Source of the DNA: a virus | Lineage: Duplodnaviria; Caudoviricetes | DNA: 63,908 bases | Direction: 5' to 3' (one strand) | Virus record (IMG/VR): IMGVR_UViG_3300032087_005153 | Location: 1 to 63,908 of that record | Part shown: positions 29,201 through 59,260 of the stretch, one piece after another | How positions within the stretch are numbered: position 1 is the first letter of the stretch | Layout of the letters: the number at the start of each line of letters is the position of its first letter | The notes under the pieces: model-generated | What the model saw: only the letters and a program-made list of their open reading frames with translations | Databases searched by the model: none | Told to the model about the DNA's origin: nothing | Translations under genes and position numbers: made by a program

Positions 29201-32200
29201 TGATCCTGATACTATTTATGAAATTGAAAAATCTATTAAAGGCAGTACAGTAATTGAAGTAGGGGGTCGAGGAAATAAGTTTGAAGAAAAAAATGCGGTA
29301 GGAAATAGAGAAGTTTCAATATTTGCTGCGGATGACCCGCTTAGAAAAACATTAACAATTAATGAATTAAAATCTGCAATTCCAAAATATGGAGATAAAA
29401 ATATTTCAGTAGATATTTTATTTGTAGAAGAAAAAACTAATAAAATAGGATTTACTGAAAATCCTGCTATATTTGAAACTGAGCCGAAAGAAAGCAAAAC
29501 AGATTTAGATATTTATTATGAAACAGAAAAAGCATATCCAGTAAGTGAACACGGTAATGCTCAAGTATTAGAATGGTATAATGCATTTTGTTTTGGTAAT
29601 GGTATTGAATCAAATAGGATTAGAGATGATTTTAATGCTCCTTTTATTGATAACGGAGTAAAAGTTTCAGCAACGATTGCGGAAGAAATAAAAGAAGAGC
29701 ATAAATTTAATGGTATAATATGGTCTGGTATTATTAACTCAAAAACAGGTATAAATAAATCAAATGAGTTTAATGTAGCATTTCCAATAACAAAAGATTT
29801 ATTACCTTCATATGGTAGCATACAAAAGTTGCATACATGGGATGATCAAATTGTAATGTTATGTGAAGACAAAATAGTTAGAGCATATGCAGATAAAGAC
29901 GTATTATACAATGCCGATGGCAATACAAATGTAGTATCAAGTAATAAAGTTATAGGCGATGTAATGCCTTATACCGGTGAATATGGTATATCTAAAAATC
30001 CTGAAAGTTTTGCTTATTATGGATTTAGATGTTATTTTGCAGATAAAACAAGAGGTGTTGTATTAAGATTATCAAAAGATGGTATTGAAGTCATTAGTAG
30101 ATATTTAATGACTAATTTCTTTAAAGAAAGATTTTTTGATGATGGTTGCTATCATGCTGAACCCTTAAGTACAAATATAGTGGGTTCTTATGATAATTAT
30201 AATGATTTATATAATATATCATTTGATGGCTTAGACACTGTTTGCTTTGATGAAGTAGCAAATGGATGGGTAACAAGAAAATCATTTATTCCAGAAAATG
30301 GTATATCATTAAATAATATATATTATACTTATAAAAATGGTGAATTATGGGAGCAAGATTCTAAAGATGCTCTATATAATAATTTTTATAATGAACAATA
30401 TACTTCTAAAATAGAATTAGAAATTAACGACAATCCTTCTGTAATTAAAAAATATAGAACATTATCTTATGAAGGAACAAAAGGGTGGACTGCTAATGTT
30501 ATAACCGATCAGCAGAAATCTTCAACTATGTCTTTTAAAGAAAAAGAAAACAAATATTTTTCTTATATAAAAGGAGAAGAAAAAGATGTAGAAAACTTAG
30601 ATACTAAAAACTTTAATTTTCAAGGATTAGGTGTTGCTAGTGATATTTCAGGAATTGGACCCGCAACAAGTACGGAATTAACTTTTGGTATTTTGCCAAT
30701 TGAAACCAATAGCTATTCTTCTAAAATAACAAAAATTAATAATACAGCAGGGACAGCATTAAATAATACTGTCCAAATAATTATTTCACCTAAGGCTGGG
30801 TATACTTTAAATGCTAATAGTTTTACTACTAAAAATATAACTGCAACACAAAGCGGTGACAATATTTTATTAGACTATACTCACGGAATAGCTTTTCAGC
30901 CCACAAAAAATAAACATATTGACATTTCTTTATGTAAAGTAAATTTTGCATCGAAAAAAACAATAACAGTTTCTGGCTTATATGCATTTAAACCTAATAA
31001 ATGGCTTAATACAGATGTAACAAATGATAGCTTTACTGTAACAGGGCCGCCAAATATTTTAAAAGAAATAAAAACCCGCACAGTAACAGCTAAAAAAGGA
31101 TTTCAAATAGATATTGATAATATAAGTAGTAGTAATCCAAATGTTATTTTAGATATTAAAATAAATAATTTAGAAAAAACAAGTGTAACTATTACTGAAA
31201 AAATTATTATGCCAAGCGCTAATAATGATAACTTTAATTACACTATAACTGTAGACGAAATACAAATACAAGAGCCTAAGAAACAATTATTATTTTCTCA
31301 AATTAATACTAACGATGCTATAAATGATATATTAATTAGGCCATTAGAAATAACTGCAGATCCTGGTTCTGTATTTTCATATAAATTACAAGGCCCTAAT
31401 TCTTTTGAAGAAACAGAATTTGATATAATAGTTAATAACACGGGAAAATACATTAAGGAAGTTATATTACCTTCAAATGCCCCTGGAACTTATACAATAA
31501 CATTAACACCCGGTACAGATACTATAAATGGATCTGATTTTGAAGATATTATTACAATACCCTATTCTGCTAAACAGATAAATAAAATATCATTATTTAC
31601 TGAATTTAATAATACAACAAGTACAGTAAATGAATTTCAAGCATTTACTAATGACGGCATATCGTATAGTTTTTCAAATGAAATTATATTACCTAATGCT
31701 ACTTATTTATTAATAGCCCAGCCAAAATCAAGTGATTTTGTTTATGATAATAAAATTGACGATCCTAGGCTTTTAAATTTATCTTTAAACTTAAATTCAC
31801 AGACTAATACAGCAACATTAACTGGTGTAATACAAATTGATAAAGTAAGTACTTCAAATCAAATAGTTTTATTTTTAGATAGTTTTATTAATGAAGAAGT
31901 AACTTTAAGTATAGATTACAGTAATACTATTTTAGGTGGTGGTGCTACAGGTAATTATAGTATAACACCTTCTGTACCTTATCAAATAACCGACGCCGCA
32001 TTAAATATTCCAACTACAGCGGATTATTATCAATTTACAATAACTCCTGCTGGAGGATATGAGTTTATAAATAATATAAGTAGTCAAGATTTTATAGTAT
32101 CTGATTCAACTAGTGATGTTACTTCAACATATGCTGAAAATGGATCATTAAAAGCTTTGATAGTAAATGATAATTTAGAAATAAGACTTTATCCAAGTAA

Positions 32201-35200
32201 TTTTAAATTACCATCTACAAGTCAAACTATTTATATAAGACCAAATAAAATTATAACACAAGCTGTGACTGCAGCCGCTGGAAATTATAGTATAACATAT
32301 AATCCTCTTGATAATGAAGATAGGTTATTTACTAATACTTTAATTTTAGGTACATTAACAGATACATCAAATCAAAATTTCTTATTTCAAAAAACATTTA
32401 CAATAGATAGAACAGGCCCTGATTTTACAAAAATATTTTCTGCAACAGGCCATGTTGTAAATTTATTAGATAATGAATTAAGTTTAGCTACAGCTGGTAC
32501 TTATACAGATATAAATGGTGATTCAATAACTGTTACAGATTTTATAGAAATTAATACAGATAAAACTGAATTAACATTAAATATATTAGCAAATATAAAT
32601 AGTGTACCTGATAAAAAATTAGGTAGAATAGATTTTGATTTTGCTACTGAAGAGTTGTATACTGTAATAAAACTTAAACAAGGTGGATGTAATACTACGC
32701 AACCAACAATAGAATATAGATTGTATAATATTGATCCATATGATCCAACTCCAAAAATAGGTGCTAAAATTACACAAATACAATCAAATAAAATTGGTGC
32801 TTCATCCGGTGTTACATCATTAGAAAATGAATATAAGATTGATGGAACTGATTTCGTACTAACATTGAAAAAAGATTTTATTACGTCTATAGATTATATA
32901 AAAGATATTCAAAATTGTACAACCACAATCCCAACAATAATTACTGCTGATAATATTATTTCTACATATGGCGATGGTACTATTAAAATTGGTGCAGTAG
33001 CTAATAATCAATATTCTCAATTAAGGTATGAGATGGTTTCAGGAACGGGTATTGTTGGATTTACAGAAGGAATATTAAAAAGTAATACAGGTCAAACACC
33101 TCCGGTGGGTGTGCATAAAATAAAAATATTTGCACAAGAAGTATATATAGCTAGTACTAGAACATTATATGAATATGCTGAAAAAACAATTACTATAACT
33201 GTTAAAAAAGCAAATGTATCAATATCTACTTTAAAAGTTCAAATGACAGAGGGTGATACTGATGATCTTAATTTATATGTAACTACAAATAGTGGTGGGA
33301 TACTTTCTTTTAATACTACATATAATAATATTATATCATTAAATGGATCTTCTATTGATGCTATTGGGGATGGAAATGGTACAGTAAGTGTTTCAGTTGC
33401 AGAAACATCAAATTATAATGCTGGTATTGGGGTAGTTAATGTTGAAATTGCAAAATTTATAGTTCCTATAATTGATTCCGATGGGGATGGCATTCCTGAT
33501 GATCAGGACGCATGGCCATTTGTTGATGACAATGTAGCTTGGAGTTTTGGTGTTGACCAAATGGGTTTAACTAATTTTGTTAAAAAATCAAATGGTGAAT
33601 TAAGCACAATGAACCAAGGTGGAGGAAAAGGTTATTTAGCTGTTTATTCTAGGGTAGCTGACAGATTTAATTATGATAAAAGCCAGCTAACCTGGAAAGC
33701 TTATGTAAGCATAGATCCTGATGACCTAGCTGAATATGGACAATTTGTTAAATTAGACAGGACAACGGGTGTTGTTTCTGATGATCATGATGACAAAACA
33801 GCTATATTAACAGGAGGTGATCCTATAAAATTTACTGTATCAAGATGGATTAATCCTGATTCATCAAAAAGAAAAGCAACTATATATGCAGATATATATT
33901 ATAAAGGCAAATTAGTTAAATCTGGTCTTAATGATGGTAGTATGAAACAAACTGATGATGCTAATTCTTCATCAACTGTATCTTCTACCCCAGCACCTAC
34001 TACTGTTACCGCACCACAAGCTGCTTTAACAACGGCATCATCATCTACACCAGCTCAAACATATATAGACTTTACAGCAAGTAGCTCTAAATCTTCAAAA
34101 GCATTAGCAGAAATTGTACCGCTTTCAAATATAAATGTAGACTACTGGCATAATGGTACTTCGCCAACACCAATTGTAGGTAATAAAATATTTACAACAA
34201 GTAGTGGTAAATCATTAGCTAAATCAGGCTACTATAGAATAAGTGCAACAAAAGGTATGGTACTAAACTCTAGAGGTAGCGTATTACAAATATTTGATAT
34301 TACGGCACAAACAATTTCATCAACTACGCCAATTAGCAATGTGTATAGCATAGATTGTAGTACTATCGGATTTAATGTTAATGTTCAAGAATACACGACC
34401 AATACATGGGATATTAATGCAACACTATTAGGAAACTCTGCTAGTGATGTTGAGGTTATTGATTCAAAAGTTGTATCATTCTTTTTGAATGCAACAGCAG
34501 ATAAAACAATATGGACTAAAACAACGTTTAGAGTAATAAATAGTAGTGCACCTAATTACGATACAGTATTTACTTGTAATAAATTTGCTACATCAACTCC
34601 GTCTCTTTCTAACTTAAGTCAAAACGACGCAAATAGATATGAGCAGGAAATGAGTAATATATTTGAAAATAGCAAACCAAATACTCAAGGAACCCCTAAT
34701 CAAACTACTAATCAAACAACTTCACAGCAAGTTGGTACACCTAGTAGTACAAATACAGCAAAAGATACTACTGAACCGCCAATTATTCAATTTGTTACTA
34801 GTAATACTAGAAAACCTTTAACTGGTGTTAATAATGCAAAACTTTATTTAGAATCAAGATTTAGTAATAATCCTGATGAAAACTATAAAGAATATAAAGA
34901 TGTATTATTATATAGAGGGTCCGAAGTTTATACAAATTATTATACAGGTAGTGCTAGAACTAATGAAAAAGTATATGACGGAATTGGTGGCAATAAACAA
35001 TTCCCTGTTGACACAAATGACAAAGGCTACTACTACGTAATAAGTACTGAACGGGATGGTTTATTCAGCGGTAAATATGTAAGAGCCGGTCAATCTAAAT
35101 TATGGGTAAGAACAAATGCTGGAACAGGAGCAATAAATTATAGAGGAGTTGCAAGAGATCCATTTAATATAGTACAAAATGGTTTTGTAAATATAATGGT

Positions 35201-35486
35201 TAATGAAACTGAATATACTAATTTCTTTATTGTTGATCCATTTAAGAATAATGGTAAACCAAGATCTAATACAGATTTCTTGCCGTCGCTTCCAACAAAA
35301 CCAGAAGACAGAGTGGTTGTTTCTAAATTTTTAGGGGGTAAAACTTATCACAATTATATTCCTTTAACTCTTAAAGTACAAAACGGTGTAATTGTTGATG
35401 CTTATCAGCAACAACATACTAAAGAAACTCACGGAACTTATGATGTTTATGCTCCTAATAAATTTAATCCTTCAATAGAACCTTAA
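26265..35486 (+). CDS. Tail stabilisation (nozzle/muzzle) protein with long C-terminal extension
   Basis: GMMDKDRDERL...YRDALNI N-terminus, LFFTDDLNPPRKINI, GEYGISKNPESFA; Thr/Asn-rich tail with DSDGDGIPD motif. Confidence 0.75.
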   Translation: MAELKHTFIAGMMDKDRDERLVKNGTYRDALNIHISSSEGSDAGAVENLLGNKQLTDLGLSNAQTIGSIPYGLKDKIYWIVTSDNIDGIYEYDQIQKTVVPIIIDTKRNSSELINSLTIQSNEDNELVLSNITASQLKTICGNIPDDTIDEVLVNNNINLSSQDPKLNISIPQNTILRRENKKYVFKNIEYSGQEYGNITITFSFSIKSVLNFSKNNLITGIDIIDDMLFFTDDLNPPRKINISKFKKYTNTPYPNTNGVFQTQTLVQYSEKDANGNIINLTRDFSENDLSVAKKAPMKAPTLELYNSLISGVTEIEKIISFYITSSNGDKEIGIGDNLTISGLTTLPNWNEGDNLELSSYTDDGTGEYLEATAIVKQVLESSIIITLTSRNYAPVKNINYKVSISLVEKDPIHELSFVRFGYRWKYFDGEYSTMSPFSETAFLPKKYQYNAKEGLNLGMENDLRKIILNDFDLGDDTVKEIEILYKETRNQNIYTLKSFRRIDFDNSYEITKERIHSVLPNDQLLRSWDNVPRKAKAQAVTANRIIYGNYTQNYDVYNSPEFGISYLKRSANSNKKTIKSNRTYQVGVAYIDEYNRHSPVLSDQSGSITIAKDKTKETKQFEVRLKNNPPAWAKYFKYYIKDNSGEYYNIAADRFYYDEENGFMYVSFSSNERNKINKDESILLKKEHGSDIAVIDSDNRYKVIEIFNEPPNFVADKKKVVSSLDDVLFTSGYNLSTAGGTLTQIKTENSTPVANYSKIQVKRANQANDPDDSNNSGVPGFLVNELKPGRFIRFDFNGKESQPYEIKSVGVDREDSTEIEITIKDSFNDDVDIIYDRDGNVGNPPVQGHSHGYRLGVRITILEKFSDYKNEEFDGRFFVKLKANNLLKNIFEGDTVDNKDYSILEKLTLFGAPTFSDSKKDRRTRPPRKIDLNPEYPLFLSHSGTASNYTFKVEELNTKVDDKYLDLFINGTKFYFSNDPDTIYEIEKSIKGSTVIEVGGRGNKFEEKNAVGNREVSIFAADDPLRKTLTINELKSAIPKYGDKNISVDILFVEEKTNKIGFTENPAIFETEPKESKTDLDIYYETEKAYPVSEHGNAQVLEWYNAFCFGNGIESNRIRDDFNAPFIDNGVKVSATIAEEIKEEHKFNGIIWSGIINSKTGINKSNEFNVAFPITKDLLPSYGSIQKLHTWDDQIVMLCEDKIVRAYADKDVLYNADGNTNVVSSNKVIGDVMPYTGEYGISKNPESFAYYGFRCYFADKTRGVVLRLSKDGIEVISRYLMTNFFKERFFDDGCYHAEPLSTNIVGSYDNYNDLYNISFDGLDTVCFDEVANGWVTRKSFIPENGISLNNIYYTYKNGELWEQDSKDALYNNFYNEQYTSKIELEINDNPSVIKKYRTLSYEGTKGWTANVITDQQKSSTMSFKEKENKYFSYIKGEEKDVENLDTKNFNFQGLGVASDISGIGPATSTELTFGILPIETNSYSSKITKINNTAGTALNNTVQIIISPKAGYTLNANSFTTKNITATQSGDNILLDYTHGIAFQPTKNKHIDISLCKVNFASKKTITVSGLYAFKPNKWLNTDVTNDSFTVTGPPNILKEIKTRTVTAKKGFQIDIDNISSSNPNVILDIKINNLEKTSVTITEKIIMPSANNDNFNYTITVDEIQIQEPKKQLLFSQINTNDAINDILIRPLEITADPGSVFSYKLQGPNSFEETEFDIIVNNTGKYIKEVILPSNAPGTYTITLTPGTDTINGSDFEDIITIPYSAKQINKISLFTEFNNTTSTVNEFQAFTNDGISYSFSNEIILPNATYLLIAQPKSSDFVYDNKIDDPRLLNLSLNLNSQTNTATLTGVIQIDKVSTSNQIVLFLDSFINEEVTLSIDYSNTILGGGATGNYSITPSVPYQITDAALNIPTTADYYQFTITPAGGYEFINNISSQDFIVSDSTSDVTSTYAENGSLKALIVNDNLEIRLYPSNFKLPSTSQTIYIRPNKIITQAVTAAAGNYSITYNPLDNEDRLFTNTLILGTLTDTSNQNFLFQKTFTIDRTGPDFTKIFSATGHVVNLLDNELSLATAGTYTDINGDSITVTDFIEINTDKTELTLNILANINSVPDKKLGRIDFDFATEELYTVIKLKQGGCNTTQPTIEYRLYNIDPYDPTPKIGAKITQIQSNKIGASSGVTSLENEYKIDGTDFVLTLKKDFITSIDYIKDIQNCTTTIPTIITADNIISTYGDGTIKIGAVANNQYSQLRYEMVSGTGIVGFTEGILKSNTGQTPPVGVHKIKIFAQEVYIASTRTLYEYAEKTITITVKKANVSISTLKVQMTEGDTDDLNLYVTTNSGGILSFNTTYNNIISLNGSSIDAIGDGNGTVSVSVAETSNYNAGIGVVNVEIAKFIVPIIDSDGDGIPDDQDAWPFVDDNVAWSFGVDQMGLTNFVKKSNGELSTMNQGGGKGYLAVYSRVADRFNYDKSQLTWKAYVSIDPDDLAEYGQFVKLDRTTGVVSDDHDDKTAILTGGDPIKFTVSRWINPDSSKRKATIYADIYYKGKLVKSGLNDGSMKQTDDANSSSTVSSTPAPTTVTAPQAALTTASSSTPAQTYIDFTASSSKSSKALAEIVPLSNINVDYWHNGTSPTPIVGNKIFTTSSGKSLAKSGYYRISATKGMVLNSRGSVLQIFDITAQTISSTTPISNVYSIDCSTIGFNVNVQEYTTNTWDINATLLGNSASDVEVIDSKVVSFFLNATADKTIWTKTTFRVINSSAPNYDTVFTCNKFATSTPSLSNLSQNDANRYEQEMSNIFENSKPNTQGTPNQTTNQTTSQQVGTPSSTNTAKDTTEPPIIQFVTSNTRKPLTGVNNAKLYLESRFSNNPDENYKEYKDVLLYRGSEVYTNYYTGSARTNEKVYDGIGGNKQFPVDTNDKGYYYVISTERDGLFSGKYVRAGQSKLWVRTNAGTGAINYRGVARDPFNIVQNGFVNIMVNETEYTNFFIVDPFKNNGKPRSNTDFLPSLPTKPEDRVVVSKFLGGKTYHNYIPLTLKVQNGVIVDAYQQQHTKETHGTYDVYAPNKFNPSIEP

Positions 35487-36521: not shown

Positions 36522-37994
36522 ATGGCATTAGATACAAGATTAATTGGACAAGCAATCGGTGGTGGTAGACCTTTAGATTTAGCAGGAGCAGTAAGGCCGG
36601 CAATAGCTCGCGGCGAACAAGCTATACTTAGGCGTCGCGCTGTAGAAAATAGACAACAAGAACTACAAGCTCAAGCTATTGCACAATTACCAATGCTCGA
36701 TGAATCACAAGTTCCAGAACAAATGCGTGAATATGCAATGACTGAAGCTATGAATATTCGCAATGAGGCTATTGCTGCTATCCAAGATAAAAATATAACT
36801 CCTATTGAAAGACAATTAGCTATTAGTAAAGCTATGGGTAAAATCAATAAGATAGCTACGCGGGCTGGTGACTTTAAACAATGGATTGCTAACCTAGCCG
36901 AAATGGGACGAGATGATTTAAGTAGATTAAATAGCAAAGAGTTGATGGACAAAGTTGATAGTATATATAAAGGTAACTTTGTTGTAGAAAATGGTGAGTT
37001 TATTTTTAATAAAGGAGAAGCAAATGAGGAGCGCAAAGATTTTAATTCTTTAGTTAATACAAGACCCATATCAAGAAGATCAGATGCTTTTTTAAGTCAA
37101 TTAAAAGCCGTAGGCCAAGAATATGAAAAATATGGCTCTATAGATGAAGAAGATTTCAAAGCTAAAGTTAAAGAAGAAGTATCGAACATGAAATACACTG
37201 ATGCGGATTTAGCTAGTATATTGGTTGACGAAATGGATGAACAAATTCCAGACGGCTTAATAGATATAATAAAAGATGATTTTGAAGATAATGGTCAAAT
37301 TGATAGTGATTACAAAATTCCTGATGTTGAAGGAGATACCTTTAAGGATCAATTAATTAAATTAGTTTCTGATAAATATGAAAATGCCGCTAGAGTTGCA
37401 TATGATAGAGCTAAAAAAGCATATAATAAAAAAGTTTCTGCTGAAGCAGCAGCTCGAAATGCAAATGATGGGGGCATGACTGCTTCATTAAGACAAGAAA
37501 TACAATTATTTGGGCCAACCGTAATGCCGTATAGCAAATTTAGTGAGACTATATCTAACATTACAGAAATGCAAGGTCCTATGCAAAATGTAGGGGTTGA
37601 CCTGCCTACTAAAATACCTGTAAGTGATGAAATGAAATCACAAACTATAGTTGATCAGCTTCGTTCAATAAATAAACAAAATCAAGGAGACTTTGCAACT
37701 AGATCAGAACAATTAGATATATTTAAAGCTAACGCTCAAACAATAGATAGTTTAAAAAATCTGTCCTCTCAACAACTTACGGATATGTTTAATACTATGA
37801 ATGGTGATGCTTTAGCTTTTTATAAAGGACAGCCATTGCAAATAGATTATAATAATCCTGATGATATTTATGATTTAATACTTAAGAATACACCGGGGTT
37901 AAGCCCAGAAGGTCAAAAATATTTTTTCAATAAATACATGGCAGATAAATATGCTAATGTAGATACATCCGGTATGCCTATAAATAAAAAATAA
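36522..37994 (+). CDS. Putative ejection protein 2
   Basis: Helical 490 aa, middle of the small/medium/large triplet typical of podoviruses. Confidence 0.5.
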   Translation: MALDTRLIGQAIGGGRPLDLAGAVRPAIARGEQAILRRRAVENRQQELQAQAIAQLPMLDESQVPEQMREYAMTEAMNIRNEAIAAIQDKNITPIERQLAISKAMGKINKIATRAGDFKQWIANLAEMGRDDLSRLNSKELMDKVDSIYKGNFVVENGEFIFNKGEANEERKDFNSLVNTRPISRRSDAFLSQLKAVGQEYEKYGSIDEEDFKAKVKEEVSNMKYTDADLASILVDEMDEQIPDGLIDIIKDDFEDNGQIDSDYKIPDVEGDTFKDQLIKLVSDKYENAARVAYDRAKKAYNKKVSAEAAARNANDGGMTASLRQEIQLFGPTVMPYSKFSETISNITEMQGPMQNVGVDLPTKIPVSDEMKSQTIVDQLRSINKQNQGDFATRSEQLDIFKANAQTIDSLKNLSSQQLTDMFNTMNGDALAFYKGQPLQIDYNNPDDIYDLILKNTPGLSPEGQKYFFNKYMADKYANVDTSGMPINKK

Positions 37995-38000: not shown

Positions 38001-41000
38001 ATGTTCGAATTAGACGGAAACCAATATACGTTAGAACAAGTTCAAGCTGCGGCTTATAAGTCGGGTATGATGTTCGATGATTATGTCCAAAAATATAAAT
38101 TTAAAGAATTGGGAAAGACAACTCCCACATCACCGGGTGCGGATGTGGAGGAAACTGCAGCACCCGAGTTGACCGTTACGGAATCACCATCGGTAGATAT
38201 TTCTTTGGAATCACCTCAAACAGGAACAACTGATTCTACATTAATAACACCTCCTCGCAAAAAAACTCCATCTGAATTAAGGATAGATGCTACAAGGAAG
38301 TCAATGGCAATGGCTAATCCTATAGCTAGTATTATGCCTGACTTTATGATACCCGTATTAGCCGATTGGACAGCTATGACAACCGAATTAGGGGCAGGGG
38401 TTGTAGATACTGCTGAAATATTATATGAATTAGGATTGTCTGGAATAAGTAATGAAACTTTTGATAGAATATCTCGGGAACAAAGAATAGACATGTCAGA
38501 GGTTTATGAGGGAGTTGATGCTCTTAGAAATATTCGAGAAAAAAAATATGATGAGCAAGGAAATGAATTAGACGCTATAGGCTTATGGCAAGCCGGTAGA
38601 AAAAGTGAATCAGCCCAACAATTTATTAGTGAAGCAATAGGTTCTTTGCCTTCTACGGTTTTATCATATATAATACCCGGTGGTGGTTCAGCTATAATAG
38701 GTATTGGAACATTTGGATCAGAATTTGAAAGAAATTTAAAAGAAAGACCAGAAGAAACTGGAATGGCAATGTTGAAAAATGCTTTTATAAAAGGTAGTGC
38801 TGAAGCTGTATTTGAATTGCTTGGTGGTAAAACTTTTAAAACATTAACAAAGGCTGCTTCAAAAGGAATGACAGAAAAAGCTGTTAAAGAAATGACACGC
38901 ACTGGAATTCCTTATGCTCTTCGCAAAATATTAGGAATAACCGGGCAAGCGGCAATAGAGGCTGGCACAGAAGCATTGACAGGGGTTACACAATTAGCAG
39001 CTGATGAAATGTTTTTTGACGACGAAATAGAAGCTGCACAATATTGGCGAACAATTATTCATAGCGGAGTAGTTGGAGGATTAATGGGTGGTGGTATTAC
39101 GGCTGGAACGGTTGGTACTCAAGTAGCATTAACTGGTGACAGAAAAAAAGCAGCAATGGCTATAATTGCACCTAAAGAATGGAGAGCTGAACAAAAAGAA
39201 ATTAGTAGAAATATTGATCGTGCAGCAAGAGACTATCAAAACGCGCCTGATAATAAAAAAGCATATTTTAAAAATAAAATAGAAGTATTAGAACAACGTT
39301 TAAATGGTAGAGCAGAAAGGTTAGCTAAAGTTTGGGATGGTTTAACTAGAGCAGAAAAAATAGAATATGCAAGATTAGTAGATGAAACTAATTCTCAATT
39401 AGATATTATAGGTAATGCTAAATATACTAATCAAGCCCAAAAAGAAGCACAAATACTTTTAGACGGTGCTTATTCTGAAATGCAGGCCATATTAGGTAAA
39501 GATAATATAAATATAGAAGATGAGCAAGCTCTTTCAAGAATAATTAAAAGCGGAGTTAGTATAGCAGAAGCAGTTGGAGTTGCTAAAAAAGTTTTAAAAA
39601 ACATAAATATACAAAATATTTCTAATGAAGTATTTCAGCAAGTATCAAAAGCGGTAACTGGTAAAAAAAGTGCATCCGACGCTATATTTTTTGATGGAAA
39701 TAATATATTTATAAATAAAGATATTTCAGCAGCTACAGAACAAACAAATGTATTAGGCCACGAACTATTACATTATGTCATGGCTAAACGGTTTAATGTT
39801 AGCGATGAATCTTTAGGTCCACTAGTAAACAGCTTTAAAGATTATTTAAAACAAACTCAGCCAGAAATACTAGAAAGAATAGAGCAAAGACTTGAAAAAG
39901 CTTATGAAGGTGAAGCGCCTTTAGAAGAATATTTAAATCTTTTTTCAGATATTATAGCTAGAGAAAAAATAATAGTTGATGAAAGTATTACTGATAAAAT
40001 AAAAAATTCAGCAACTCGTCTTTTAAATAGTTTTGGATTTGGTTCGGTTAAATTAGAAACAGGGAAAGATGTTTTTGATTTTTTAAGAAATTATACTAAA
40101 AATGTTAATAATCTAAAGTTTAAACAGCTTGGTATTGATATTACATCTGATAAAATAGGAAAAGCTATTCAAAAAGATGTTAGAGAATCAAAGTCGGTAG
40201 CTTCAGAAAAAGTACAGGAAATATACGAAGCGCAAGGGGCGGCTAATGCTATGGATATTATAGATGAGTTTAGGCCTATAACAAATAAAATAGTAAACAG
40301 ATATAAAGATGTTCCTGGATTTGAATTTCAATTATTAAGAGATGAAATAGAAACTGGTAAGCGGGGTATACTTGATATGATCATGAGCTACACACCTGAA
40401 AAAGCTAAAGGTGCACCACTAGCTGGATTTATAAATAAATTTTTACCAGCAAGAGCTATTGAAGCTGCAAACCGTATATTAAATACAGAATTTACATTAG
40501 ATGTAACCGAAGCTAAGGGAATAACAGATACTGCTACTGAAGAAACTATAGAAGCTGCTGATGAAGCCAAAATAGCTGATGAAATAAAAAGCTTGCGAAA
40601 AGAAATTGGACTTCCTGAAGAGCTTGTAAATGCCGTTAAAAACGCTGTAATAAAAACATTTGGGACTAAACTTCCAAATCCACAAGATCCTAAGTTTAGA
40701 TTAGAATTACAAAGAAGATTTAGAATTGAGCTTAAAAAGCCATTAGCTAAGTTTGTTGGTAAGCAAGCTGACTATGAATCTTTTTTACGTAATAATTTTC
40801 AGTCTATATATAATAAATTACCCCAGTCTTTAATTAATAGAAGATTTAAAGATTTTCAGGAGCCGGTACTTGATAAGAATGGTAAGCATGTAAGAGAAAA
40901 AACCGCTGAAGGTAATAAAGTATATACTAAAAAGAAAATTACTCCAGCAGAATGGGTTAAATACTTTTTAGGTACAGATGTTGGAAGATCAACTCAAGGC

Positions 41001-44000
41001 ACTAGAAAAACAGCAATAGTTGAAGCAGTTGCAGAAGAAATTGCATTTGATGCTACAATGGAAATTTTGCAAAGTCCTGATGTAATAAATAAATATCAAG
41101 ACATAGCTGGTATAACAGGTGAAGTATTACCTGAAAACTTTAAAGCTATTATAGCTAAACAAATAGATAGAGCTGAAGACTTTAAATTTTCTAAAAGTTT
41201 GCCCAATATAGCTAAAGAAGAATATAATTTAGAACAACAAGAATTAGCTAAGATACTAGATAAAAATAATTTAAATAGTTTATCTAATAAATATTCTTTA
41301 TTATCTGATAATATAATTTATGAAGCAGATCCTGCTAATATTAGATTTAGTTTAACAACTAAAGCAGATGGCAAATGGACGGCAGATCAATTAAACCCGC
41401 TTGATGAGAGCAGAGGAATATATAAATTTAAAGTAGGTGAAATAGATTATGAAATAAACGCATTTAAAGATCCTTTAAATTATAATTACGACATATTTGA
41501 GCAAACAGAAGGCATTGAAGATGGAGCCATTAATAATGATCCAAAATCATGGGGTATGACTTTTGCGTCCGCAACTACGCAAAGGGTTAATATAACAGGA
41601 TATGCATTAAAAGGCCTTACTAATCAGTTTAAAGTATTGGGGACTGTAGCTAATGCTACTATAGATTTAATTAAAAAAGAAAAATTAAATTCTATAACAT
41701 TTACTGCTAAAGAAGAAAGTAGAAAAAGATTATATAGATCTTTAAATCAAAAGTTTGCTAATGAATTAGGATGGAAAACATATGATTATCAAGCCACCGT
41801 ACCAGATGGTTCAGAAACAATATTTATAGCTTATAACCCTAAAGCTTTTAATGTTGAGCCACAAATTACAACACCTCCCCCAATAAGATTTTCAAATTCA
41901 AATTCAAAATTTAATGTTACTGCCAAAAAATTATTAACTCCTCAGGGATGGGCGGAATGGAGTAATGCTAATTATGAAGGGGCAAAGGTTTTACAAGATA
42001 AAATTGGTAATATTAAAACTAAATTAGGATCTCAAAGACCATCTTATATAATAAGTGAAAAAAGAATTAAAGGCTTTGATAAATTAACAAATAAAGAAAA
42101 ACAAATATTAAGAGAAAAAATAAATAACCTTAAAGAATCAATAATAGCTTATGAAGCAAAAACTGATTTTAATATATTAAAGCCCAAAGAGTCATTTGGA
42201 AATCCAGCTAAAAAATTCGGGCGTAATGCTACGGAAATTTTTAATAATATAAAAAACGGCAATATATTTAAATTACAAAATACATATTCAAGAATATATG
42301 ATAATATGTGGGAAAAATATTATGATATATTAGAAGAAGACTCTAATATGTTTGATTTTCTTGAATCAACTTTGCAAACTTCTAATGATGATGTTTCTCA
42401 TTGGCATAGATTAGGCGCTACATTTTTAGGTTTTGATCCTACTGCTTTAGAAGATTTTTTAACAGATAAAAATGGAAATAAAATATTAAAAACTATTTAT
42501 ACAAAACAAGGCAAAAAACAAATTCCAATAGTAAGAACTTTTGAATATGAGCATGCTGTACAAAATCATATTCAATGGAAAAGAGTATTAGATGCCGCTA
42601 AGCGCTTTGCTAAAAATAAAAATAAAAAAGGTTTTTTAGATTATCTTAAAAAGTCTAAAGAAAATTATGTTTTAATAGCAATGTCTATTACTGACTCCAA
42701 AAAAATTAATGAAGCAGGCTATGCCCATGTAATGCCAAAAAATTGGAAAAAATGGGTTGATAGGTATATTGCTTCTAATATTGATTTAAATAAAATAGTA
42801 TATATAAATTATTCAAATAATAATGCCACTATTGATGGTAATATTGCTTCTAATTTTGTAACAAGAGAATCTAAATCATTAAATAGAGATTTTAATAAAA
42901 TATTAGAGCAGTCAACAGGTATAGATTGGAAAACACGTTTTTCACCTGTTCAAGCTCGTATAATGGGTAAAGGTAAAGGTAAAAAGTTTTTTATACCTTA
43001 TTCTGCCGATGATTTTGTTGGATTATTATACACAACTTTAGCTGATAAAAAAGTTGGTGAACAGCAAATGGAATGGTATAAAGAAAACTTACTTAGACCA
43101 TTTTCTCGCGGTATTCAACAATATGAAGCTGCAAAACAAAAAGCTTTACGCGAATGGCAAATCCTTAAAAAAGAAGCTAAAAAAGATGTGCCTGGTGGTT
43201 TGGATAAAAAGAATGCTACTGGACTTACTAATCAAGATGCTGTTAGGTTATATATATGGAGAACACAAGGTATGGAAATACCAGGTGTAAAAGGCGGTGC
43301 AGCATTTGTAAATGAAAATTTAAAAATAGTTAGAAAAAATCCTGAACTAAAAGCATTTGCCGAAAGACTAATGGCTTTAAACCCAGAAGGTTATCCAGAG
43401 CCGGCTACGAATTGGGATTCAGGTGACATTACTACAGACATTGTATCATATATAAACAATGTTAAACGTAGTGAATTTTTAACTGAATGGAAAGAAAATG
43501 TTGATGAAATATTTTCTGATCAAAACAAAGAAAAGCTAAGAGCTTTATATGGAGATAATTATATTGAAGCATTAGAAGATATACTTTATAGAATGCGTAC
43601 GGGTACAAACCGTAAGTTTGGTATAAGTAAAGTTGAAAGACAATTTATGGATTGGACTAATAATTCTGTTGGTGCAATAATGTTCTTTAATGCTAGATCT
43701 GCAGTACTTCAAACATTATCGGCTGTTAACTTTATAAACTTTACAGATAATAATCCAATCAATGCTGGTGTTGCATTTTTCAATCAAAAACAATATTGGA
43801 ATGATTTTTCTGAATTATTTAATTCTGACTTTTTAAAGCAAAGAAGATCTGGATTACAAACCGATGTTAACGCTGATGAAATTGCTAGAGCGGCTAAAGG
43901 CGCTAAAAATACAGCAAGGGCAGTATTAAGTGCTTTATTAAAATTTGGATTTACACCAACGCAAATAGCTGATTCATTTGCAATTGCATCTGGTGGAGCA

Positions 44001-44909
44001 ACATTCTATCGCAATAGAATAAAAACATATTTAAAAGAAGGGATGTCAGAACAAGATGCTAAAGCTAAAGCATTTACTGATTTTCAAGAAATTGCAGAAG
44101 AAACACAGCAGTCTGCACGACCTGATCGTATATCATTACAACAAGCAAGCTCACTAGGACGTCTTATATTAGCTTTTGGTAACACACCTATGCAATATGC
44201 CCGCTTAACTAAAAAAGCCACATTAGATTTAATTAATGGGCGCGGAGATTGGAAGACAAATATGAGTAAGATTATGTATTATAGTGTAATACAGAATATT
44301 ATATTCTCTGCTTTACAGCAAGGATTATTTGCTTTATTATTTGATGATGAAGATGATGATAAACAAAAATCAAGATTATTTAGAATAGGTAATAGTAGTT
44401 TAGATACTTTATTACGCGGGGTTGGTGTTTACGGGGCAGCGGCGGCTACTTTAAAAAATATGGTCCTTGAAATTATAGATCAACAAAAATCTGGTAGACC
44501 TGATTATAGTAAAATAGCTATTGAAGCAACAGCAATATCACCTCCGATAAATTCTAAATTAAGAAAACTTGAATCTGCCGGTAAAACTTTTACGTATAAG
44601 CAATCAAAAGAAAAAGTATTTACTGAAGGATTTAGTTTAGAAAATCCTGCATTTTTAGCCGGTGGTAAAGTTATATCAGCTTTAACAAATTTACCTGCTG
44701 ATCGTGTTGTACAAAAAGCAGATCATATTTATACAGCAATGCAACCTGAAACAGAATTATGGCAATCAATTGCATTATCACTCGGGTGGAGTGAATGGGA
44801 TCTTAATATGATTGAAAACAAAACTCCTCAAAAAAATTTAACTACAAAGCAGTTACAAAATTTAATGAAAAGAAATAACAATCTTAAAAAATTAATGAAA
44901 AGGAAATGA
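38001..44909 (+). CDS. Giant polyvalent ejection protein with zincin and sigma-region-2-like domains
   Basis: 2302 aa; Gly-rich hydrophobic segments, HELLH at 39759-39773, sigma-like segment about 40263-40480. Confidence 0.65.
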   Translation: MFELDGNQYTLEQVQAAAYKSGMMFDDYVQKYKFKELGKTTPTSPGADVEETAAPELTVTESPSVDISLESPQTGTTDSTLITPPRKKTPSELRIDATRKSMAMANPIASIMPDFMIPVLADWTAMTTELGAGVVDTAEILYELGLSGISNETFDRISREQRIDMSEVYEGVDALRNIREKKYDEQGNELDAIGLWQAGRKSESAQQFISEAIGSLPSTVLSYIIPGGGSAIIGIGTFGSEFERNLKERPEETGMAMLKNAFIKGSAEAVFELLGGKTFKTLTKAASKGMTEKAVKEMTRTGIPYALRKILGITGQAAIEAGTEALTGVTQLAADEMFFDDEIEAAQYWRTIIHSGVVGGLMGGGITAGTVGTQVALTGDRKKAAMAIIAPKEWRAEQKEISRNIDRAARDYQNAPDNKKAYFKNKIEVLEQRLNGRAERLAKVWDGLTRAEKIEYARLVDETNSQLDIIGNAKYTNQAQKEAQILLDGAYSEMQAILGKDNINIEDEQALSRIIKSGVSIAEAVGVAKKVLKNINIQNISNEVFQQVSKAVTGKKSASDAIFFDGNNIFINKDISAATEQTNVLGHELLHYVMAKRFNVSDESLGPLVNSFKDYLKQTQPEILERIEQRLEKAYEGEAPLEEYLNLFSDIIAREKIIVDESITDKIKNSATRLLNSFGFGSVKLETGKDVFDFLRNYTKNVNNLKFKQLGIDITSDKIGKAIQKDVRESKSVASEKVQEIYEAQGAANAMDIIDEFRPITNKIVNRYKDVPGFEFQLLRDEIETGKRGILDMIMSYTPEKAKGAPLAGFINKFLPARAIEAANRILNTEFTLDVTEAKGITDTATEETIEAADEAKIADEIKSLRKEIGLPEELVNAVKNAVIKTFGTKLPNPQDPKFRLELQRRFRIELKKPLAKFVGKQADYESFLRNNFQSIYNKLPQSLINRRFKDFQEPVLDKNGKHVREKTAEGNKVYTKKKITPAEWVKYFLGTDVGRSTQGTRKTAIVEAVAEEIAFDATMEILQSPDVINKYQDIAGITGEVLPENFKAIIAKQIDRAEDFKFSKSLPNIAKEEYNLEQQELAKILDKNNLNSLSNKYSLLSDNIIYEADPANIRFSLTTKADGKWTADQLNPLDESRGIYKFKVGEIDYEINAFKDPLNYNYDIFEQTEGIEDGAINNDPKSWGMTFASATTQRVNITGYALKGLTNQFKVLGTVANATIDLIKKEKLNSITFTAKEESRKRLYRSLNQKFANELGWKTYDYQATVPDGSETIFIAYNPKAFNVEPQITTPPPIRFSNSNSKFNVTAKKLLTPQGWAEWSNANYEGAKVLQDKIGNIKTKLGSQRPSYIISEKRIKGFDKLTNKEKQILREKINNLKESIIAYEAKTDFNILKPKESFGNPAKKFGRNATEIFNNIKNGNIFKLQNTYSRIYDNMWEKYYDILEEDSNMFDFLESTLQTSNDDVSHWHRLGATFLGFDPTALEDFLTDKNGNKILKTIYTKQGKKQIPIVRTFEYEHAVQNHIQWKRVLDAAKRFAKNKNKKGFLDYLKKSKENYVLIAMSITDSKKINEAGYAHVMPKNWKKWVDRYIASNIDLNKIVYINYSNNNATIDGNIASNFVTRESKSLNRDFNKILEQSTGIDWKTRFSPVQARIMGKGKGKKFFIPYSADDFVGLLYTTLADKKVGEQQMEWYKENLLRPFSRGIQQYEAAKQKALREWQILKKEAKKDVPGGLDKKNATGLTNQDAVRLYIWRTQGMEIPGVKGGAAFVNENLKIVRKNPELKAFAERLMALNPEGYPEPATNWDSGDITTDIVSYINNVKRSEFLTEWKENVDEIFSDQNKEKLRALYGDNYIEALEDILYRMRTGTNRKFGISKVERQFMDWTNNSVGAIMFFNARSAVLQTLSAVNFINFTDNNPINAGVAFFNQKQYWNDFSELFNSDFLKQRRSGLQTDVNADEIARAAKGAKNTARAVLSALLKFGFTPTQIADSFAIASGGATFYRNRIKTYLKEGMSEQDAKAKAFTDFQEIAEETQQSARPDRISLQQASSLGRLILAFGNTPMQYARLTKKATLDLINGRGDWKTNMSKIMYYSVIQNIIFSALQQGLFALLFDDEDDDKQKSRLFRIGNSSLDTLLRGVGVYGAAAATLKNMVLEIIDQQKSGRPDYSKIAIEATAISPPINSKLRKLESAGKTFTYKQSKEKVFTEGFSLENPAFLAGGKVISALTNLPADRVVQKADHIYTAMQPETELWQSIALSLGWSEWDLNMIENKTPQKNLTTKQLQNLMKRNNNLKKLMKRK

Positions 44910-57622: not shown

Positions 57623-57708
57623 CTCTGGTCCGATGATTTCATAAAGGATCTCTAAATCCTCTAATTCAGCTGGTGTGATATGGTTTAATAAATTTTTTGT
57701 TTTACCCA

Positions 57709-57909: not shown

Positions 57910-58158
57910 AATTTTTTGGTTTAGTTAAACTTTTTATATTCTCTGCTATGCCCCTATAGTTAGAAGTTTGCAGGTGTTTATATAGTTTATAGCTCATTTA
58001 ATATAATTCTTTAAATTCAATTGGTACATCTGGTGGATAATATTTAAGTATATCCGCTATTGTTTTATCTTGTACGTGATCAGGCACCTCAAGATTAATT
58101 AAATAATCAAATTTAGTGTCCTTATAAAATATATTGAGTACGCCCATTGATGGCTTTT

Positions 58159-59258: not shown

Positions 59259-59260
59259 AT

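What the first reader, a model, noticed from the sequence alone, without database searches (positions are those of the whole stretch)
39600..42950. Self-cleaving polyprotein architecture: zincin protease plus recurrent R/K-F/E-S linker motifs
Seen: HELLH (39759-39773, residue 587) with downstream EE, then motifs VRESKS (40182), FKFSKS (41184), IRFSLT (41343), IRFSNS (41886), TRESKS (42864) and possibly TRFSPV (42936). They fall at apparent domain boundaries, two after Pro-containing linkers. Known: large polyvalent phage/plasmid proteins carry zincin-like metallopeptidases proposed to release effector domains. Inference: these motifs are the cleavage sites, releasing cargo modules of about 330, 50, 180 and 325 aa after injection, and the cargo may be exchangeable between conserved N- and C-terminal scaffolds.
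Basis: partly seen in the sequence, partly recalled or inferred. Interest (0 to 1): 0.78.

Follow-up and report, generated by a model that had tools for sequence, protein, structure and literature searches.

The report
Self-cleaving phage cargo polyprotein candidate
A 2302-residue protein of a marine phage joins a zinc-protease-like domain to a chain of swappable modules separated by a short conserved K-F-S-K-S-type linker, which fits a self-cutting delivery protein, though no cutting has been shown.

Summary
ORF 38001-44909 (2302 aa) has one HELLH and five [KR]-[FE]-S-x-[ST] motifs at residues 727, 1061, 1114, 1295 and 1621. The strict pattern occurs in none of the 34 other ORFs checked.

Comparative data link motif and protease:
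- In 120 family members the core [KR][FY]S[KLN][ST] occurs 1.52 times per protein against 0.04 in shuffles.
- It is in 72 of 91 HExxH-bearing members but 1 of 29 without HExxH, that one a fragment.
- 258 of 260 copies lie downstream of HExxH.
- 160 of 308 internal homology breakpoints fall at the five sites.
- Four sites lie in low-confidence coil between folded units.
- Single proteins carry the same variant at all sites, for example QFS five times.

The modules include a sigma-factor region-2-like fold and a GNAT-like fold. The gene follows a crAss-type muzzle gene.

Limits: cleavage itself, its timing and virion packaging are inferred. The protease-less forms are a single clade. The window's two RES sites are degenerate, and TRFSPV is not a site.

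This is a new variant of zincin-bearing polyvalent phage proteins, now with a testable site motif.

The parts
38001..44909 (+). ORF of the 2302-aa mosaic polyprotein (P0001), last gene of the rightward virion-gene block
   Evidence: 878 homologues at E<=0.001 among 7995 scored candidates, all from metagenome or viral contigs. No match in 50,697 GenBank phage records even at E<=0.05.
38001..38252 (+). N-terminal ~84 residues, conserved in about 50-73 of 119 homologues; function unknown (a packaging or docking element is an inference)
   Evidence: HSP coverage (many separate HSPs 1-84).
38253..39557 (+). Variable N-terminal region with a Gly-rich hydrophobic stretch (residues 220-238) and coiled-coil-like helices
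   Evidence: Hydropathy scan. Weak SseC-like Pfam hit, E 0.0045, below cutoff. Coverage about 47-64 of 119.
39558..40145 (+). Zincin-like metallopeptidase domain (residues ~520-715): HELLH 587-591 (nt 39759-39773) and putative third metal ligand E643 (nt 39927-39929)
   Evidence: HExxH in 87 of 87 aligned homologues. H587, E588, L590, H591, E643 and Y698 invariant in 38 diverse sequences. AF2 pLDDT 74-93, strands followed by the HExxH helix and a second helix. Anthrax lethal factor catalytic domain Z 4.9, rmsd 4.2, 131 aligned; YbeY Z 5.0. Peptidase_M78 19.6 bits, below the cutoff of 22; 2 of 27 relatives hit M78, best E 3.8e-6.
40179..40196 (+). Site 1, VRESKS (727-732): degenerate copy (E for F) of the first linker motif, between the protease and the sigma-like module
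   Evidence: Relatives have RFSKS or KFSKS here, e.g. P0004 at 729 and P0006 at 732. 24 internal HSP boundaries fall here. Model pLDDT about 45-67 with a disordered stretch just upstream.
40197..41180 (+). Module A (733-1060), conserved in 115 of 119 homologues; residues ~733-829 (nt 40197-40487) have a sigma-70 region-2-like fold, the rest is helical and unassigned
   Evidence: VIA-align: 27 of the top 28 rows are sigma factors, the other a scaffold aligned at the same range (SigB 8x6g_H Z 8.3, rmsd 2.8, 87 aligned, model 216-309). ESM Atlas: 27 of 30 named hits are Sigma70_r2, score 0.93, with recognition below the tool's mark. Weak profile hits to sigma-K region 2, E 0.35, and to the phage's own sigma region 2, E 0.35. 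No Pfam hit at E<=10.
41181..41198 (+). Site 2, FKFSKS (1061-1066): canonical linker motif
   Evidence: Of 87 aligned homologues: K 82, F 76, S 80, K 70, S 53. 45 internal HSP boundaries. Model 1 low-confidence coil at 554-562.
41199..41339 (+). 53-aa helical mini-module (with its leading motif: 1061-1113); almost always followed by the GNAT-like cassette
   Evidence: Segment family 3: 19 members, all exactly 53 aa. The 3-4 pairing recurs in most listed architectures that hold family 3. Four short helices in model 1.
41340..41357 (+). Site 3, IRFSLT (1114-1119): linker motif of the K-F-S-L-T subtype
   Evidence: Of 31 aligned homologues: K 30, F 31, S 31, L 28. Coil between a helix and the first strand of the next domain.
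41355..41852 (+). GNAT-fold (acyl-CoA N-acyltransferase-like) cassette, residues ~1119-1284
   Evidence: VIA-align: GNATs fill 47 of the 50 rows listed, best 9nij_A Z 8.8, rmsd 3.8, 133 aligned, model 616-777. Foldseek prob 1.00, E about 0.03. Pfam DUF6934 24.3 bits, below the cutoff of 27.
41883..41900 (+). Site 4, IRFSNS (1295-1300) after a TTPPP linker
   Evidence: Of 26 aligned homologues: K 22, F 19, S 25. Model 1 low-confidence coil at 780-802.
41901..42860 (+). Cassette C (1301-1620), confidently folded alpha+beta unit of unknown function
   Evidence: pLDDT mostly 84-95. Present in only about 16-27 of 119 homologues. No Pfam family above cutoff.
42861..42878 (+). Site 5, TRESKS (1621-1626): degenerate copy of the motif in front of the C-terminal domain
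   Evidence: Of 79 aligned homologues: K 55, S 63, K 62, S 49, L 62; second position F 23, Y 13, E 7. 63 internal HSP boundaries. Model 1 low-confidence coil at 1117-1128.
42879..44906 (+). Conserved C-terminal domain (1627-2302) with one strongly hydrophobic stretch (2096-2114); recombines freely with either N-terminal type
   Evidence: Present in 113-118 of 119 homologues. 1665 shorter proteins carry it. On the tree of this domain the protease-less proteins are scattered. ESM Atlas nearest clusters are viral hypothetical proteins; the nearest with a Pfam family are LPD39 and LPD38, a lead only.
26265..35486 (+). Context: 3073-aa muzzle-like virion protein two genes upstream
   Evidence: Pfam crAss_MUZ_C, E 4.3e-9, 37.1 bits, above the cutoff of 27. 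PHROG virion structural protein, E 9.6e-139.

Best explanation
P0001 is most likely a virion cargo or ejection polyprotein of a 63.9-kb phage related to Flavobacteriia phages. A zincin-type metallopeptidase domain (residues ~520-715, HELLH plus E643) is followed by a string of unrelated folded modules. These are a sigma region-2-like module, a 53-aa helical unit, a GNAT-like unit, an unknown alpha/beta unit and a conserved C-terminal domain. Each junction is a short flexible linker with the consensus hydrophobic-K-F/Y-S-K/L/N-S/T.

The best-supported mechanism is that the protein's own protease recognises these linkers and cuts there, freeing the modules. Fusion would let arbitrary cargo be packaged through shared terminal parts, and cutting would follow packaging or ejection.

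Shown here: the motif, its conservation, its link to the protease domain, its place at cassette boundaries and in predicted linkers, cassette shuffling, and the folds of three modules.

Inferred: catalysis, the scissile bond, the timing, packaging into virions, and any effect of the modules on the host. In this particular protein sites 727 and 1621 carry E instead of F/Y, so only sites 1061, 1114 and 1295 are canonical.
For: 1. Motif enrichment. 1.52 copies per protein against 0.04 in shuffles over 120 members. 80 observed against 2.8 expected in 143 further proteins whose protease domain is only 26-54% identical to the query.
2. Link to the protease. The strict motif is in 72 of 91 HExxH-bearing proteins but 1 of 29 without HExxH, and that one is a truncated fragment. 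The looser motif is in 85 of 91 against 4 of 29. The 29 have no detectable protease domain, 0 of 29 against 87 of 90 by hmmsearch, yet they keep module A and the C-terminal domain.
3. Polarity. 258 motifs lie downstream and 2 upstream of HExxH, although 30% of residues are upstream, over 233 proteins.
4. Boundaries. 160 of 308 internal BLAST breakpoints lie within -10 to +15 residues of the five sites, where 6% is expected. Motif-delimited segments form families of tight length (53; 175-182; 300-323; 326-390; 664-801 aa) that occur in many combinations. 3810 segment pairs are homologous over at least 80% of both partners.
5. Predicted linkers. Sites 1061, 1114, 1295 and 1621 fall in low-confidence coil between folded units.
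6. Concerted variants within one protein. P0017 has QFS at all 5 sites where 30 of 31 and 22 of 26 homologues have K. P0079 and P0099 have SKASKGL at two or more aligned sites, and P0100 and P0101 carry KASKG twice. P0004 has RFSKS 3 of 3. One locus clade uses mainly QFSK[TS].
7. Conservation is at the amino-acid level. The invariant Ser uses TCA, TCT or AGT.
8. The strict motif is absent from the other 34 ORFs checked in this phage.
9. Zincin signature. HExxH and E643 are invariant, with a lethal-factor-like structural match at Z 4.9.
10. Context. The gene lies two genes after a crAss-type muzzle gene. In crAss001 cargo proteins gp45-gp50, numbered just after the muzzle protein, were found in virions by mass spectrometry (PMC10172136, passages read).
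Against: - No experimental cleavage data exist for any member.
- On the module-A tree the protease-less proteins are one clade (1 change). The co-loss of protease and motifs is therefore essentially one evolutionary event. The many 'independent pairs' on the C-terminal tree reflect recombination, not independent losses.
- 19 of 91 HExxH proteins lack the strict motif, 6 of 91 lack the looser one, and five distant loci with HExxH show none by my pattern.
- The zincin fold match is weak (Z 4.9) and no curated peptidase family is reached.
- Site 727 lies at a helix junction of moderate confidence rather than in a clear linker.
- Two of the window's five sites have E at the enriched aromatic position.
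- All enrichment tests use related sequences, so the p-values are not phylogenetically corrected.
- Packaging is inferred from synteny only, and no isolated phage in the GenBank set carries a homologue.
Confidence: 0.6

Rival explanations
1. The motif is a linker or signal that is not cut. It could be a flexible spacer read during packaging or translocation through the tail, or a docking strand for the protease domain acting as a tether. In this reading the HExxH domain acts on something else, such as host proteins or cell-wall peptides.
For: - No cleavage data exist.
- N4 vRNAP and the plasmid proteins ArdC and TraC1 carry a zincin domain yet are transferred uncut (PMC5512222, passages read).
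- The Drobysheva preprint raises peptidoglycan digestion as one option for the crAss zincin domain (10.1101/2020.03.07.982082, passages read).
- Model 2 predicts VRES (727-730) as a short strand, at low confidence.
Against: - A pure spacer would not keep K, F and S at 94%, 86% and by definition 100% over proteins whose flanks are unrelated, nor change in concert at all sites of one protein.
- The same junctions exist without any motif in the protease-less clade. The motif is therefore not needed for folding, packaging or ejection of that architecture.
Confidence: 0.2
2. The motifs are cleavage sites, but for another protease, either a phage maturation protease or a host enzyme, and not for the in-cis zincin.
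For: - Phage internal proteins are classically trimmed by the prohead protease, as in T4 gp21 (recalled, not checked here).
- A 432-aa gene of unknown function lies between the portal and capsid genes, with no PHROG or Pfam family.
Against: - The strict motif is absent from the other 34 ORFs checked, including portal, capsid and muzzle proteins.
- No prohead-protease family was found among the ORFs scanned.
- The motif tracks presence of the HExxH domain and lies only downstream of it.
- Motif variants differ between closely related phages, which a conserved host protease would not explain.
Confidence: 0.1
3. The motif is a footprint of module shuffling, a junction sequence favoured by recombination, with no role in the protein.
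For: - Homology breakpoints pile up at the motif.
- The phage encodes an Erf-like annealing protein and an exonuclease.
Against: - Codons at the motif differ, including both serine codon families, and the element is only 15-18 nt long.
- Conservation is at the amino-acid level.
- The protease-less clade shuffles C-terminal domains at the same junction without the motif.
Confidence: 0.05

Closest known systems
Polyvalent proteins of phages and conjugative elements with zincin-like MPTase domains (Iyer et al. 2017, PMC5512222; abstract and passages read, supplements not seen)
   Same: - A large multidomain protein in a phage virion-gene context.
- One HExxH-plus-Glu zincin-like domain combined with unrelated modules.
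- Autoproteolytic release of modules was proposed there. That paper matched its N4-type MPTase to anthrax lethal factor by HHpred, and my model matches the same catalytic domain at Z 4.9.
- BFVD fold hits include proteins named 'large polyvalent protein associated domain', and the Atlas lead points to LPD38/39.
   Different: - The passages I read define no cleavage-site motif, and 'sigma' does not occur in the main text.
- Here a specific linker motif recurs at every junction and co-varies with the protease.
- No Pfam polyvalent-MPTase or LPD model is matched by HMMER.
- Whether this family is one of that paper's 12 MPTase clades sits in supplements I could not open.
crAss-like phage virion block gp65-gp66-gp67 of phi14:2, and cargo proteins gp45-gp50 of crAss001 (10.1101/2020.03.07.982082 and PMC10172136; passages read)
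   Same: - The gene lies just downstream of a muzzle-type gene.
- It is a giant protein with a zincin-like domain.
[quoted passage not shown]
   Different: - No RNA polymerase module was recognised in this protein by the searches run.
- The conserved module is sigma region-2-like instead.
- There is no sequence match to any GenBank phage record.
- The genome is 63.9 kb with a P22-like portal and is not a crassvirus by size. The crass fold itself was not tested.
MARTX-type multi-effector toxins with an internal processing protease
   Same: It works alike in outline: exchangeable effector modules are strung between conserved terminal regions and released by a protease domain in the same chain, cutting in inter-module linkers after delivery.
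   Different: The protease class is unrelated (cysteine, not zincin), and the delivery route and organisms differ. There is no homology. This is an analogy only.
T4 internal head proteins and Alt, trimmed by the prohead protease (recalled; BFVD lists an Alt homologue as a weak fold hit, E 3.5e-3)
   Same: These are packaged, injected effectors that act on host transcription and are processed at short consensus sites.
   Different: They are cut in trans by a separate maturation protease that also cuts capsid proteins. Here the motif is confined to one protein, which carries its own protease.
Sigma-70 family factors, including single-domain phage forms such as T4 gp55
   Same: Residues ~733-829 superpose on region 2 of many sigma factors (Z 5.4-8.3, rmsd about 2.8-3.4, 70-90 aligned). 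The T4 late-transcription complex chain 7d7d_F is among them (Z 7.5).
   Different: - There is no Pfam Sigma70_r2 hit and no region 4 was detected.
- By eye, the tandem aromatic residues of region 2.3 in sigma-70 (recalled) are not matched in the family consensus.
- The module is embedded in a polyprotein rather than encoded as a free factor.

Membership tests
Zincin (gluzincin-type) metallopeptidases | HExxH motif in a helix | tested here: met
   HELLH at 587-591. H, E and H are invariant in 87 of 87 aligned homologues and 38 of 38 diverse sequences. The motif lies in a predicted helix (model 2 H64-78).
Zincin (gluzincin-type) metallopeptidases | Third metal ligand (Glu) in the following helix | tested here: met
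   E643, 52 residues after H591, is invariant in 38 of 38 sequences and lies in predicted helix H122-135 of model 2. Its ligand role is inferred.
Zincin (gluzincin-type) metallopeptidases | Mixed beta-sheet next to the active-site helix (zincin fold) | tested here: inconclusive
   Model 2 has three strands before the HExxH helix at pLDDT 74-93. Best zincin matches are YbeY Z 5.0 and anthrax lethal factor Z 4.9, 131 aligned, at ranks 41 and 43 in a list filled by the sigma-like domain.
Zincin (gluzincin-type) metallopeptidases | Peptidase activity | not testable with these tools
   Needs expression and assay.
Pfam Peptidase_M78 (IrrE/ImmA-like) | Score at or above the curated cutoff | tested here: not met
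   19.6 bits against a cutoff of 22 for the domain alone. 2 of 27 relatives match at E<=0.01, best 3.8e-6. Not filed as M78.
Polyvalent proteins (Iyer et al. 2017) | Many unrelated domains in one phage or plasmid polypeptide, commonly with a zincin MPTase | tested here: met
   Protease-like, sigma-like, GNAT-like and at least three unassigned units in one ORF, in a phage virion-gene block.
Polyvalent proteins (Iyer et al. 2017) | Match to the published MPTase or LPD domain models | tested here: inconclusive
   No such Pfam family is listed even at E<=10. The Atlas lead to LPD39 (28% of cluster members) and LPD38 (88%) scores 0.93-0.95. BFVD hits to 'large polyvalent protein associated domain' proteins have E 5e-3 to 8e-3 and low probability.
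Sigma-70 family | Region 2 fold | tested here: met
   Rank 1 SigB Z 8.3, rmsd 2.8, 87 aligned. 27 of the top 28 rows are sigma factors. The tool warns that Z under about 13 for helical bundles can be a common arrangement, but the list is almost purely sigma factors. Atlas: 27 of 30 named hits are Sigma70_r2.
Sigma-70 family | Sequence-profile membership (Pfam Sigma70_r2) | tested here: not met
   No Pfam hit for residues 727-1061 at E<=10. Profile hits to sigma-K and to the phage's own sigma have E 0.35 only. Described as sigma-like, not filed as a sigma factor.
Sigma-70 family | Region 4 (-35 recognition) and promoter-directed transcription | tested here: inconclusive
   No region-4 match appears among the listed rows, and the search list is filled by region 2. 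Function is not testable here.
GNAT acyltransferases | GNAT fold | tested here: met
   47 of the 50 rows listed are GNATs, best Z 8.8, rmsd 3.8, 133 aligned, covering model 615-778. Foldseek probability 1.00.
GNAT acyltransferases | Acyl-CoA binding motif and activity | not tested
   Only DUF6934 at 24.3 bits, below the cutoff of 27.
Crassvirus-type virion cargo proteins | Encoded just downstream of the muzzle gene and present in virions | tested here: inconclusive
   The position is met: crAss_MUZ_C at 37.1 bits, above the cutoff of 27, two genes upstream. Presence in virions is not testable here, and there is no sequence match to crassvirus records.

The most novel reading that the evidence does not exclude
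A widespread group of uncultured marine phages injects, in place of a virion RNA polymerase, a self-processing polyprotein. Its in-cis zincin cuts at K-F-S-K-S-type linkers and releases a sigma region-2-like RNA-polymerase-binding module together with swappable effector cassettes, GNAT-like among others. Host transcription would then be redirected by a delivered sigma-like factor from the first moments of infection. The linker motif and the protease specificity co-evolve (K-, R-, Q- and 'KASKG'-type lineages), giving a plug-and-play cargo system.
Probability: 0.25. Interest if true: 0.85.

Novelty: new variant of a known kind. Interest (0 to 1): 0.74.

Why it matters
In 2017 zincin domains were proposed to process phage and plasmid polyvalent proteins. 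The passages I read of that paper (PMC5512222) give no site motif. My three text searches found no phage paper that gives one: zincin, phage, virion, polyprotein, cleavage; KFSKS, 8 papers, 7 listed, none of them on phages by title and abstract opening.

This family offers a concrete, conserved candidate site. It also offers natural controls: a protease-less, motif-less sister clade and lineages with concerted site variants. That makes the proposal directly testable with one construct and one point mutant.

If true, it explains how phages package arbitrary effector cassettes, fused to shared ends and then cut apart. It gives a rule for reading cassette boundaries in more than a thousand uncharacterised metagenomic giant proteins. 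A delivered sigma-like module would be a route to early host takeover that I did not find described (5 papers hold the terms, 4 listed, none on this by title and abstract opening).

Tried and rejected
- Complex prediction of the protease domain (520-719) with a 41-residue stretch around site 1061 gave 'no answer' (best score 0.23, mark 0.32). This is no evidence either way.
- Stand-alone C-terminal proteins. Several 670-700-aa database proteins start exactly at the motif position, for example sequences beginning MQFSR or MASKIL. The one I could place (P0346) is 100% identical to an internal part of a 2435-aa ORF in locus L006. The short forms may be gene-calling or fragment artefacts, so I dropped them as evidence.
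- Stand-alone module A. The 28 short homologues are mostly fragments with arbitrary ends. There is no clear free form.
- Specificity-pocket covariation. The column that best separates K/R-type from Q-type proteases is E642, next to the putative ligand E643. It is acidic in 78 of 78 K-type and 3 of 3 R-type proteins and non-acidic in 17 of 18 Q-type. On a correctly aligned tree the Q-type needs only 2 changes and the non-acidic state 1, and the second Q lineage (P0017) keeps D. This is a clade difference and suggestive only. One search used unaligned rows by mistake and is void.
- Sequence searches that gave nothing useful: PHROGs, 0 families; PDB by sequence; PDB profile, only E 0.35 for sigma-K; GenBank phages at E 1e-5 and 0.05.
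- Pfam on 21 diverse family members found only DUF6934, in 3 of 21.
- Foldseek against PDB gave no match at E<=0.001 for either model.
- TRFSPV 1645, KES 1378 and KES 1396 were rejected as sites.
- A DNA-level recombination signal was rejected on codon variation.
- The phage's own canonical sigma is not a paralogue of module A by BLASTP, E 24.
- An 86-sequence alignment failed and was rerun with 28.

Full report
**What is there**

The window is the whole assembly, one contig of 63,908 bp. It is a tailed-phage genome. A rightward block holds tail-fibre genes, GroEL/GroES-like genes, lysis genes, the large terminase, the portal, a capsid-type protein and other virion proteins. A leftward block holds replication and nucleotide-metabolism genes and a canonical sigma factor.

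The portal is 42-53% identical to portals of Flavobacterium, Maribacter, Cellulophaga and Tenacibaculum phages. The 3073-aa protein at 26265-35486 carries the crassvirus muzzle C-terminal domain above Pfam's cutoff. Two genes further on, and last in the block, lies ORF 38001-44909, 2302 aa.

**The observation**

- [RK][FE]S occurs 8 times against 2.26 in shuffles.
- A stricter pattern occurs 5 times here and in none of the other 34 ORFs checked.
- HELLH is the only HExxH in the protein.

**The motif is a family feature**

A database search found 878 homologues among 7995 scored candidates, and I took the best 120. BLAST coverage shows two conserved blocks and two variable stretches:
- Conserved: 727-1060 in 115 of 119 homologues, and 1626-2275 in 113-118 of 119.
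- Variable: 1061-1620, present in only about 16-35 of 119 across 1101-1575, and a patchy N-terminal third.

Breakpoints pile up at the motifs. Of 308 internal HSP ends, 160 lie within -10 to +15 residues of the five sites, where 6% is expected.

At the aligned sites the core is strongly conserved:
- Site 1062: K 82, F 76, S 80 of 87.
- Site 1115: K 30, F 31, S 31 of 31.
- Site 1296: K 22, F 19, S 25 of 26.
- Site 1622: K 55, S 63, K 62 of 79.

[KR][FY]S[KLN][ST] occurs 1.52 times per protein against 0.04 in shuffles. The flank consensus is hydrophobic-K(94%)-F(86%)/Y-S-K(73%)/L/N-S(73%)/T-L.

A separate HMMER search with the protease domain alone found 449 cluster representatives at E<=0.001 among 1.84 billion. 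The 143 new ones among the 150 listed are 26-54% identical in that domain. They carry 80 strict motifs against 2.8 expected.

**Link to the protease**

- Of 91 members with HExxH, 72 have the strict motif and 85 a looser one.
- Of 29 without HExxH, 1 has the strict motif, and that one is a truncated fragment; 4 have the looser one.
- The 29 have no detectable protease domain at all, 0 of 29 against 87 of 90 by hmmsearch. They keep module A and the C-terminal domain, joined without the motif.
- Over 233 HExxH proteins, 258 motifs lie downstream of HExxH and 2 upstream, although 30% of residues are upstream.

This co-variation needs an honest caveat. On the tree of the C-terminal domain the protease-less forms are scattered, with at least 16 changes, and the motif follows HExxH in about 13 of 16 pairs. 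On the tree of module A they are a single clade. So there are two versions of the N-terminal two-thirds. One has protease and motifs and the other has neither, and both recombine freely with C-terminal domains. That is one evolutionary contrast, not many.

**Concerted variants**

Proteins that seemed to lack the motif carry a variant, and the same variant at several or all of their sites:
- P0017 has QFS at all five sites, where 30 of 31 and 22 of 26 homologues have K.
- P0079 and P0099 have SKASKGL at two or more aligned sites, and P0100 and P0101 carry KASKG twice.
- P0004 has RFSKS three times.
- The window protein has R at four of five sites.
- A whole clade of viral loci uses mainly QFSK[TS].

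Parallel changes at separate sites in one chain point to a single shared reader of the motif.

The serine codon differs between sites and loci (TCA, TCT, AGT). Selection is therefore on the peptide, not the DNA.

**Structure**

Model 1 covers residues 505-1690 at mean pLDDT 68.6. It places sites 1061, 1114, 1295 and 1621 in low-confidence coil between folded units. Site 727 lies at a helix junction of moderate confidence, just after a disordered stretch.

Model 2 covers 520-1066, was built from 38 diverse rows, and has pLDDT 72.6. The protease domain scores 74-93, with three strands, then the HExxH helix, then a helix bearing E643.

Fold searches:
- Residues ~735-828 match sigma-factor region 2. 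Twenty-seven of the top 28 rows are sigma factors; the other is a designed scaffold aligned at the same range. The best is Z 8.3, rmsd 2.8, 87 aligned. This is backed by an Atlas feature search, 27 of 30 named hits Sigma70_r2, and by weak profile alignments in the same register.
- Residues 1119-1282 have a GNAT fold (Z 8.8).
- The protease domain gives weak zincin matches, lethal factor Z 4.9 and YbeY Z 5.0.

**Cassettes**

I cut 102 proteins at their motifs, which gave 304 segments. They cluster into families with tight lengths: 53 aa exactly, 175-182, 300-323, 326-390 and 664-801. These occur in many orders and combinations, written as 1-2-0, 1-7-0, 1-11-0, 3-4-6-0, 19-5-0 and so on. In total 3810 segment pairs are homologous over at least 80% of both partners.

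Pfam recognises almost none of this cargo; DUF6934 appears in 3 of 21 proteins scanned.

**Details of this protein**

Sites 727 and 1621 read RES. E at that position is not enriched in the family (14 observed, 13.8 expected), whereas F is 249 against 9.0. Only 1061, 1114 and 1295 are canonical here.

If the aromatic residue is needed, the products would be 1-1060 (protease plus sigma-like module), the 53-aa unit, the GNAT-like unit, and 1295-2302. This is inference.

TRFSPV belongs to the C-terminal domain and also occurs in protease-less proteins.

**Comparison with what is known**

Iyer et al. (PMC5512222; abstract and passages read) described polyvalent proteins and proposed that their zincin MPTase domains process them. 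They noted that N4 vRNAP, ArdC and TraC1 are nevertheless delivered uncut. The passages I read give no site motif, and the text does not mention sigma.

The phi14:2 preprint (passages read) says that crAss-like virions hold gp65, gp66 and gp67. It says gp65 has a zincin-like protease domain, and that in some phages the three are fused into a polyprotein 'likely cleaved'.

The crAss001 atlas (passages read) found cargo proteins gp45-gp50 in virions by mass spectrometry.

The present protein fits that class by position and logic. It has no sequence match to any GenBank phage record. No polymerase module was recognised by the searches run. It brings a sigma-like module and a defined linker motif.

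**Verdict**

It needed correction on which parts are variable, on two weak sites and on one false site. This is a new variant of a known kind, and its main value is that it turns an old prediction into a simple experiment.

Noticed in passing
window 26265-35486 (+): A 3073-aa virion protein carries the crassvirus muzzle C-terminal domain (37.1 bits, cutoff 27), in a 63.9-kb genome whose portal is annotated P22-like in its best phage match. Crass-type tail parts may extend well outside Crassvirales.
   Followed up: partly
window 10920-12476 (+) and 15525-16124 (+): The phage encodes GroEL-like (E 4.6e-134) and GroES-like (E 6.1e-14) proteins next to the lysis genes.
   Followed up: no
window 56248-56979 (-): A canonical phage sigma factor with Sigma70_r2 and Sigma70_r4 hits (r4 below Pfam's cutoff) is encoded in the leftward block. 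It is unrelated in sequence to the sigma-like module of the polyprotein (BLASTP E 24). No RNA polymerase gene was seen among the ORFs scanned.
   Followed up: partly
whole window: The polyprotein has over a thousand metagenomic relatives but no tblastn match in 50,697 GenBank phage records even at E 0.05.
   Followed up: partly
loci L006-L041, upstream of the polyprotein gene; window 36522-37994: A 439-500-aa ORF of unknown function directly precedes the polyprotein gene in 29 of the 36 loci examined, and an ORF of 554-638 aa does so in three more, often ending in ...GGGSLDNL or ...SMSKYNK. The window has a 490-aa counterpart with no Pfam or PHROG family.
   Followed up: no
window 41181-41852; segment families 3 and 4: In most architectures that hold it (12 of 15 listed), the exactly 53-aa helical unit is followed directly by the GNAT-like cassette, joined by the K-F-S-L-T subtype of the motif. 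The pair may be one functional unit, for example a pro-piece or partner.
   Followed up: no
window 42933-42950 (TRFSPV) and homologues: A [KRE]-F-S-P-V-x-A-R element is conserved inside the C-terminal domain (F 86, S 102, P 98 of 118), also in protease-less proteins. It resembles the linker motif but has Pro at the fourth place. Its meaning is unknown.
   Followed up: partly
loci L034, L036, L037, L040, L042: More distant relatives (40-52% identity in the C-terminal domain) have HExxH but no motif by my patterns. They may use a different linker motif.
   Followed up: no
window 57700-63750 (-): A run of about 20 small leftward ORFs (50-134 aa) fills the right end of the genome and looks like an early region. 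No promoters were analysed.
   Followed up: no
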